Position numbers and translations under genes: made by a program. Source: Eledone cirrhosa (Eukaryota). From it: 64,000 nt of DNA. Shown here piece by piece: positions 1-926 of the stretch (positions within the stretch are counted from its first letter, which is position 1; every line of letters starts with the position of its first letter). The notes under the pieces were generated by a model that worked only from the letters and a program-made list of their open reading frames with translations, ran no database searches and was not told the DNA's origin. The stretch lies in contig OZ024742.1 in NCBI GenBank assembly GCA_964016885.1, positions 75,144,001 through 75,208,000 on the forward strand, written 5' to 3'.

Positions 1-264
1 ACCAACCGCCATAGAATATTTACCCAACATTTCAACAGCACGTGGAAATCGATTAAATATATCGTCAACCATACACAATTATATATATATATATATATAT
101 ATATACACTTTAACATACGTTAATATTTCTATATATATATCTGTATATGTATAAATATTTCGTATCTCCTAGGAAATATGGTTTTAGGAAGCCGTAGCTA
201 TGCAAACACCGTGGTAGGGGGGCTAACGCCTTATGGTGACGTGCAACAGAAAAAACAAGGGGGA

Positions 265-310
265 AACCGTCTATGCATTTCAGGCTTAACTGGCCTTCGT
301 CAGGACGGTC
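265..310 (-). ncRNA. Type I hammerhead ribozyme, minimal helix III
   Basis: Reverse complement reads GACCGTC-CTGACGA-AGGC-cagttaa-GCCT-GAAA-TGCA-TA-GACGGTT. Confidence 0.85.
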
Positions 311-656
311 CCTTCCACCGCTTGCGACTGCTGGACTAGAAGACATATATACATTTCTCGTATGTGTAAATTAGGTGATTAATCTCATTTGCATATGAAG
401 CTGCATAAGTTGGTTCAACTTATAATAAAAAAGAAATAGGATTTCGCTTCAAGCATAGTTTTATACAATATGTATAAATATTTCGTATCTCCAAGGAAAT
501 ACGGTTTTAGGAAGCCGTAGATATGCAAACACCGGGGGGCTAACGCCTTCATATGCAGCTTCATATGCAAATGAGATTAATCACCTCATTTACACAGACG
601 AGAAATATATATATTCTCGCCTGTCTTCTAGTCCAGCAGTCGCAAGCGATGGGAGG

Positions 657-702
657 GACCGTCCTGACGAAGGCCAGTTAAGCCTGAAATGCATAGACGG
701 TT
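657..702 (+). ncRNA. Type I hammerhead ribozyme, minimal helix III
   Basis: GACCGTC-CTGACGA-AGGC-cagttaa-GCCT-GAAA-TGCA-TA-GACGGTT: intact core, 7-bp helix I, 4-bp helix II, palindromic ATGCAT in place of helix III. Confidence 0.88.
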
Positions 703-847
703 GTCCCCCTTTGTTCTGCTGGACATCACCAGAGGGCGTTAGCCCCCCGGTATTTGCATAGCTACGGCTTCCTAAAACCTGTTTTCCTTGGAGATACGAA
801 ATATTTATACATATTGTATAAAGCTATGCTTGAAGCGAAATCCTATT

Positions 848-926
<79 letters not shown>

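What the first reader, a model, noticed from the sequence alone, without database searches (positions are those of the whole stretch)
145..853. Retrozyme-like ~323-nt monomer arranged as partial tandem plus inverted copy, with two intact minimal HHRs
Seen: on the minus strand a 3'-end piece (548-432) runs into a further unit (420-145), period 323. A plus-strand copy follows (553-853). Both HHRs are identical and have palindromic ATGCAT instead of a stable helix III. Established: palindromic minimal helix III is the form proposed to cleave as dimers in tandem PLE repeats. Inference: the insert came from reverse transcription of a multimeric or circular small RNA, with template switching.
Basis: partly seen in the sequence, partly recalled or inferred. 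Interest (0 to 1): 0.75.

Follow-up and report, generated by a model that had tools for sequence, protein, structure and literature searches.

The report
Two-armed Penelope-mobilised hammerhead retrozyme copy
This is one ageing copy of a 323-base non-coding repeat that carries a predicted self-cutting RNA motif and sits at many hundreds of TA-repeat sites as back-to-back arms with two fixed end points, a footprint that likely records a Penelope-type jumping-gene enzyme copying the RNA from both sides of a DNA cut.

Summary
A 323-nt non-coding unit lies as a minus arm (550-145, 1.25 units, no tail) back to back with a plus arm (552-853, 39-nt tail), each with the same 44-nt type I hammerhead. 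It is a dispersed family: 268 exact ribozyme copies, 874 exact tail words, about 3.6% diverged, none young. An older sister subfamily shows compensatory changes in helices I and II. The ribozyme has canonical helix sizes, so 'minimal' is the wrong label, and the two here lie on opposite strands and cannot dimerise in one transcript. In 48 of 53 scoreable two-arm insertions one arm ends at the long site and one at the short site. In 21 of those 48, including this one, neither arm lies inside the other, which excludes fold-back copying. A coding RT + GIY-YIG Penelope-like family in the genome leaves the same footprint but shares no sequence; no coding parent was found. Verdict: a new member of the animal non-LTR retrozymes, likely mobilised by a Penelope-like enzyme. 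Expression, cleavage and circularity are untested. The scan has noted this architecture before in other families, in this and other genomes.

The parts
145..550 (-). Short-ended arm, 406 nt: unit positions M202-323 then M1-284; ends without the tail in AT-rich repeat
429..467 (-). Internal copy of the 39-nt tail, ending at the fixed head-to-tail junction (429/428)
266..309 (-). Type I hammerhead, predicted cut between 272 and 271
550..552 (.). Head-to-head (5'-to-5') joint of the two arms, one extra base
   Evidence: overlap -1
552..853 (+). Long-ended arm, 302 nt: M22-323
631..724 (+). Extended helix I hairpin that carries the ribozyme
658..701 (+). Type I hammerhead: helix I 6 bp, core CUGACGA/GAAA/UA, helix II 4 bp with 7-nt loop, helix III 1 bp plus palindromic UGCA; predicted cut after 695
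815..853 (+). 39-nt terminal tail (M285-323), present at this outer end only
854..922 (.). (TA)n target microsatellite on the right; AT-rich repeat at about 78-144 on the left
3814..4256 (.). Decayed two-arm copy of the older sister subfamily (minus 4011-3814, plus 4016-4256); both ribozyme cores are broken

Best explanation
This is a decayed insertion of a 323-nt non-coding, hammerhead-bearing repeat family with two back-to-back arms that end at two fixed sites, and it was likely written by a Penelope-like (probably Neptune-type) reverse transcriptase and endonuclease acting in trans on a predicted circular RNA monomer. Shown: the unit, the junction, the two end sites, the (TA)n targets, the conserved fold, the lack of coding. 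Inferred: tandem source copies are transcribed; two ribozymes pair their ATGCAT palindromes and cut; a host ligase closes the monomer; the endonuclease nicks both strands of a (TA)n tract; one 3' end primes at M323 and the other at M284; each cDNA runs a variable distance round the template, through the junction and the ribozyme site; the two cDNA ends are joined head to head. The family identity and Penelope-type mobilisation I put at about 0.88; the figure below is for the whole chain, circle included.
For: Long/short pairing in 48 of 53 scoreable two-arm loci, 26.5 expected if independent; 32 of 35 in pattern-picked loci. Neither arm inside the other in 21 of 48. 101 of 124 arm ends at or beyond M278 run into a dinucleotide repeat within 20 nt. 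No pile-up of 5' ends at the cut site: 4 of 143 within M160-172, none at M166. 24 of 217 arms cross two or more cut sites. Segments of one locus share rare variants: 65 against 9.8 permuted, maximum 21 in 500; 27 of 89 loci against 8.9. No fixed differences between terminal and internal units beyond alignment-end noise in 791 site tests. Compensatory pairs between subfamilies: helix I CG 31/UA 21, helix II GC 28/AU 20 and AU 27/GC 11. The majority unit folds as a circle at z -7.4. A coding RT + GIY-YIG family has a palindromic-helix-III hammerhead 124 nt before its short end and a 41-nt tail, against 119 and 39 here, and shows long/short ends in 3 of 3 two-arm cases seen.
Against: Nothing here shows RNA, cleavage or a circle. 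Long arrays were not found: the longest arms are 868, 769 and 639 nt, and the 868-nt one looks like a later local duplication; among the first 100 of 268 exact ribozyme sites there are 3 same-strand pairs one period apart and no run of three. Only 5 of 140 pattern-picked arms hold two cut sites. Shared variants may only mark the same source lineage, local duplication or gene conversion; at five polymorphic sites same-locus pairs were discordant 20 times against 47 times both-derived. No A>G strand bias that would mark an RNA stage (94 vs 105). The unit shares no sequence with 50 GIY-YIG loci, so the partner is inferred from the footprint only. 5 of 53 loci break the rule and 21 of 74 two-arm loci could not be scored. 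The opposite strand folds as well (z -9.0) and the window's own unit barely folds (z -1.4). The covariation is three inherited changes, not many events.
Confidence: 0.55

Rival explanations
1. Same family and same Penelope-type two-end priming, but the template is a linear, uncut multimeric transcript from a tandem source; the ribozyme cuts rarely or only trims the transcript.
For: Arms rarely exceed two units; ribozymes with this helix III cleave poorly as monomers (PMC7229834, passages), and 8 of 9 frog retrozyme dimers did not cleave in vitro (10.64898/2026.07.22.740005). No pile-up at the cut site fits an uncut template as well as a circle.
Against: Needs a source of three or more near-identical units, and none was found. 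Terminal and internal units show no fixed differences. Compensatory changes and a weak deficit of core changes (16 observed, 26.6 expected) suggest that cutting mattered.
Confidence: 0.28
2. The inverted arm is a fold-back or template-switch copy of the first cDNA.
For: In 25 of 48 long/short loci the short arm could lie inside the long arm; many joints overlap by a few bases.
Against: In 21 of 48, including this locus (406 nt vs 302 nt), neither arm is inside the other.
Confidence: 0.07
3. The unit is the pseudo-LTR or 3' end of a coding Penelope-like element that I did not sample.
For: All insertion features are those described for Penelope-like elements (PMC8557442, passages); frog retrozymes match pseudo-LTRs. 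Only 50 of about 10,600 GIY-YIG candidates were examined.
Against: 70 of 143 arms reach M30 or cross the junction and go on in the unit itself; no shared sequence abuts the 5' ends of 30 single-arm loci or of 30 flanks from the first set; Penelope-like protein hits near 84 loci were in none continuous with an arm's 5' end.
Confidence: 0.07
4. A DNA-level minisatellite or palindrome spread by recombination, the ribozyme being a relic.
For: Strand-symmetric substitution spectrum; one local duplication.
Against: Fixed 3' ends with scattered 5' ends, dispersal over many contigs and (TA)n targeting.
Confidence: 0.03

Closest known systems
Animal non-LTR retrozymes (Cervera and de la Pena 2020, PMC7229834; Li, Clavereau and Pollet 2026, 10.64898/2026.07.22.740005)
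   Same: Non-coding unit of 150-450 bp, GC under 50% (0.44), one type I hammerhead per unit, head-to-tail junction, self-paired monomer, Penelope-like elements in the same genome. Helix III matches the description of axolotl HHR_Amex1 (one pair, palindromic tetraloop).
   Different: Mostly under two units per arm, no long arrays found; most insertions are two head-to-head arms with two fixed ends, which the parts I read do not describe ('inverted' occurs 0 times in the main text of PMC7229834). No homology to a sampled coding pseudo-LTR. Expression and cleavage not shown.
Endonuclease-bearing Penelope-like elements, Neptune type (PMC8557442; PMC4209133)
   Same: 5' truncation, partial tandems, adjacent inverted copy, 30-40 bp tail at one end, (TA)n bias, hammerhead near the 3' end.
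   Different: No RT or GIY-YIG frame (longest ATG frame 42 aa); the whole element is 323 nt.
Non-autonomous Chlamys derivatives such as MRC1 (PMC8557442, passage)
   Same: Non-coding passengers of a Penelope-like element with head-to-tail insertions.
   Different: Those generally resemble their partner at the 3' end and Chlamys mostly lack hammerheads; here there is a hammerhead and no partner by sequence.
LINE-1 twin priming
   Same: Both nicked target strands prime, giving an inverted insertion.
   Different: In LINE-1 the second site is variable and the two pieces do not overlap; here it is fixed 39 nt from the first and both arms copy the same sequence.

Membership tests
Animal non-LTR retrozyme | Type I hammerhead in each unit | tested here: met
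   Core intact in 133 of 162 ribozyme-covering segments; compensatory pairs in helices I and II
Animal non-LTR retrozyme | Non-coding unit of 150-450 bp, GC under 50% | tested here: met
   323 nt, GC 0.44; longest ATG frame 42 aa
Animal non-LTR retrozyme | Tandem copies with two consecutive ribozymes | tested here: met
   Met for the family, 24 of 217 arms (5 of 140 pattern-picked); not at this locus, whose two ribozymes are on opposite strands
Animal non-LTR retrozyme | Highly self-paired monomer | tested here: met
   Majority unit z -7.4 as a circle; the window's decayed unit only z -1.4
Animal non-LTR retrozyme | No LTR, primer-binding site or polypurine tract | not tested
   No dedicated search; no LTR-like layout seen
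Animal non-LTR retrozyme | Target-site duplication longer than 4 bp when present | tested here: inconclusive
   Hidden by (TA)n in most of 74 loci; one clear 14-nt repeat at L003
Animal non-LTR retrozyme | Expressed as linear and circular RNA | not testable with these tools
   No RNA holder listed
Animal non-LTR retrozyme | Self-cleavage | not testable with these tools
   Only a cofold prediction of the dimer form
Autonomous Penelope-like element | ORF with RT and GIY-YIG endonuclease | tested here: not met
Penelope-type insertion footprint | 5' truncation, partial tandem, adjacent inverted copy, 30-40 bp tail at one end, microsatellite target | tested here: met
   against PMC8557442 passages
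Minimal hammerhead (min-HHR) of PMC4209133 | Short helix I (4-5 bp), long helix II (7-8 bp), no helix III insert, G10.1-C11.1 | tested here: not met
   6 bp, 4 bp, 1 bp plus UGCA; base pair of helix II is A-U here, G-C in the sister subfamily. That paper also reports Penelope-like variants with a small palindromic helix III, so ribozyme type alone does not separate the two groups

The most novel reading that the evidence does not exclude
One circular ribozyme RNA is reverse transcribed twice at once by a Neptune-type enzyme, from two fixed sites 39 nt apart, each primed by one strand of a nicked (TA)n tract. The Penelope 'tail' and 'inverted copy' are then the two products of an obligate twin-priming reaction, and the enzyme recognises its passengers by geometry (ribozyme about 120 nt before the short site, about 40 nt between the sites) rather than by shared sequence.
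Probability: 0.3. Interest if true: 0.62.

Novelty: new member of a known kind. Interest (0 to 1): 0.4.

Why it matters
How animal retrozymes are mobilised, and how Penelope-like elements make their tandem, inverted and tailed insertions, are both open in the papers read (PMC7229834 Discussion; PMC8557442 passages). A 323-nt passenger with countable ends makes both testable: the long/short rule and the exclusion of fold-back constrain the reaction, and the unit is a small substrate for an in vitro assay. The element itself is an ageing, probably inactive family of a known class, and the scan has recorded younger families with the same layout.

Tried and rejected
Rfam: no match at gathering scores. 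RNA evidence: no RNA holder listed; laying four runs of unknown kind, kept as contigs, showed only high depth and fragments, uninformative on expression. Coding parent: a Pfam accession that I recalled for a Penelope domain is not in the library; PF01541 gave 150 scored matches, of which 50 loci were compared with the unit and gave only AT-rich hits, best E 0.011. Linear cut-to-end template: rejected, no pile-up at M166. Excess of 5' ends at M1: an artefact of dropping segments under 22 nt. A-to-I editing scars: not found. Systematically higher divergence of the short arm: not found (0.036 vs 0.033). L043 as a triple-round copy: more likely a local duplication. The first end classification was faulty because alignments ran into (TA)n; one search corrects it, and only one search's class counts are used. 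tRNA-type A/B boxes: none by a simple pattern; one ATGCAAAT octamer word, meaning untested. A degenerate genome-wide ribozyme count was not obtained, so copy numbers are lower bounds. Sequence look-up in earlier scan notes: nothing.

Full report
Observation. The window holds a 323-nt period. On a unit numbered from the head-to-tail junction, the minus arm runs 550 to 145 (M202-323, then M1-284) and the plus arm 552 to 853 (M22-323). Each has the same 44-nt hammerhead; the plus copy is predicted to cut after 695. The plus arm ends with a 39-nt tail; the minus arm stops 39 nt short; both run into AT repeats. Rfam has no match.

Family. The genome (3.0 Gb, unnamed; I guess an octopod from recall of its repeats, which no call tested) has 268 exact copies of the 42-nt ribozyme and 874 of a 27-nt tail word, and 2,326 to 3,027 first-look candidates. 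I examined 50 loci picked by similarity, 30 by the tail pattern and 60 more listed pattern sites; after removing 9 duplicates 131 remained, 83 or 84 of them pattern-picked depending on whether L054 is kept. Median distance to the majority is 3.6%, and 0 of 100 segments are under 1%: an older burst. The picks are biased: all need a tail or ribozyme word, so short/short loci are under-sampled, but long/long loci are not, and they are 3 of 53.

Ribozyme. Helix I has 6 bp, helix II 4 bp, helix III one pair and a palindromic UGCA loop. PMC4209133 (parts 1-2 of 4 read) calls this size canonical and says such motifs work as dimers; PMC7229834 describes the same helix III in axolotl HHR_Amex1 (passages). 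Two copies cofold with a 6-bp shared helix III and free cores. An older subfamily, represented in the window at 3814-4256, is 75-85% identical. In an alignment of 57 sequences (2 from the window, 33 and 22 from the two subfamilies) 92.9% of cells pair, with changes on both sides in helix I (CG 31, UA 21) and helix II (GC 28, AU 20; AU 27, GC 11). These are three inherited events; the measure that counts pairs was reached by 29 of 500 shuffles. Core positions changed 16 times against 26.6 expected, a weak signal.

Architecture. Of 131 loci, 74 are simple head-to-head pairs, 50 single arms and 7 more complex. Of the 74, 53 could be scored: 48 long/short, 3 long/long, 2 short/short; 21 have one or both ends elsewhere. 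5' ends are scattered, with none at the cut site. 48 of 143 arms cross the junction; 24 of 217 cross two or more cut sites. In 21 of 48 long/short loci neither arm lies within the other, so fold-back cannot have made them; this locus is one. Segments of one locus share rare variants far above permutation (65 vs 9.8), so both arms come from the same source lineage; this does not prove one molecule, and 8 of 44 distinct shared variants come from one likely local duplication. No A>G strand bias was seen.

Partner. The genome is rich in GIY-YIG frames. One family has RT and GIY-YIG (the RT score is just under Pfam's cut-off) with a cysteine linker of the kind that PMC8557442 (passages) ties to Neptune and to (TA)n bias; I built no tree, so 'Neptune' is inferred. 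Its ends show the same footprint in 3 of 3 two-arm cases seen, with similar spacing (124 and 41 nt against 119 and 39). The unit shares no sequence with any of 50 loci examined, and no coding frame or shared flank continues any arm upstream.

Mechanism. Best reading: a retrozyme monomer, likely circular, copied in trans from both strands of a nicked (TA)n tract at two fixed sites. Chief rival: the same reaction on an uncut linear multimer. The data here do not separate them. This locus has one ribozyme per strand and could not release a monomer.

Literature. PMC7229834 (passages and Discussion; supplement unreadable, and it may list related species) proposes Penelope-like elements as mobilisers. 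The 2026 preprint (parts 1-3 of 5; supplements not seen) shows pseudo-LTR homology in frogs. PMC8557442 describes tail, inversion and microsatellite bias for coding elements. An octopus repeat annotation (PMC13282606, passages) does not mention ribozymes; PMC6431247 (passages) added nothing. Searches listed no paper on a two-site priming rule for retrozymes; one search gave two listings, not read. The library is incomplete. Earlier notes of this scan report the same layout for other families; they are not independent support, and they prompted the counts.

Verdict. Real, well supported as a non-LTR retrozyme with a Penelope-type footprint; a new member of a known kind; function as RNA untested. 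Interest 0.4.

Noticed in passing
window 3814-4256: Two-arm copy of an older sister subfamily (unit slightly longer, about 337 nt) with both ribozyme cores damaged; 3,475 first-look candidates, probably overlapping the main family.
   Followed up: yes
window 51367-52931 (minus), 3' end to about 50790: 5'-truncated coding Penelope-like element, 87-94% identical in protein to L114, with an intact palindromic-helix-III hammerhead and the long end with tail.
   Followed up: partly
window 54303-55073 (minus): 3' part of a second Penelope-like family, 96% identical in protein to L112, with a long CA-rich 3' region.
   Followed up: no
window 9486-15235: 5.7-kb compound (AAC/AAT/ACC) microsatellite with extreme strand skew.
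   Followed up: no
window 48322-48693 and 48765-49151; fragments at 2147-2290 and 2622-2722: Dimers of a roughly 192-195 nt SINE-like repeat; the SINE label is recalled.
   Followed up: no
L009:2248-2589 and L069:2349-2685: Small two-arm, long/short insertions of the coding family's 3' end; in L009 it abuts a copy of the unit in the same (TA)n tract.
   Followed up: partly
L128 3' region after 4699: Possible hammerhead variant with U at core position 3 and a CCGG palindrome in another Penelope-like family, read by eye.
   Followed up: no
window 558-565 region of the unit (M34-41): Octamer word ATGCAAAT kept in both subfamilies inside a hairpin; a possible internal promoter element, untested.
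   Followed up: no
L203, L204, L214: Three near-identical sister-subfamily copies within 7 kb on one contig with shared flanks: a local segmental triplication.
   Followed up: no
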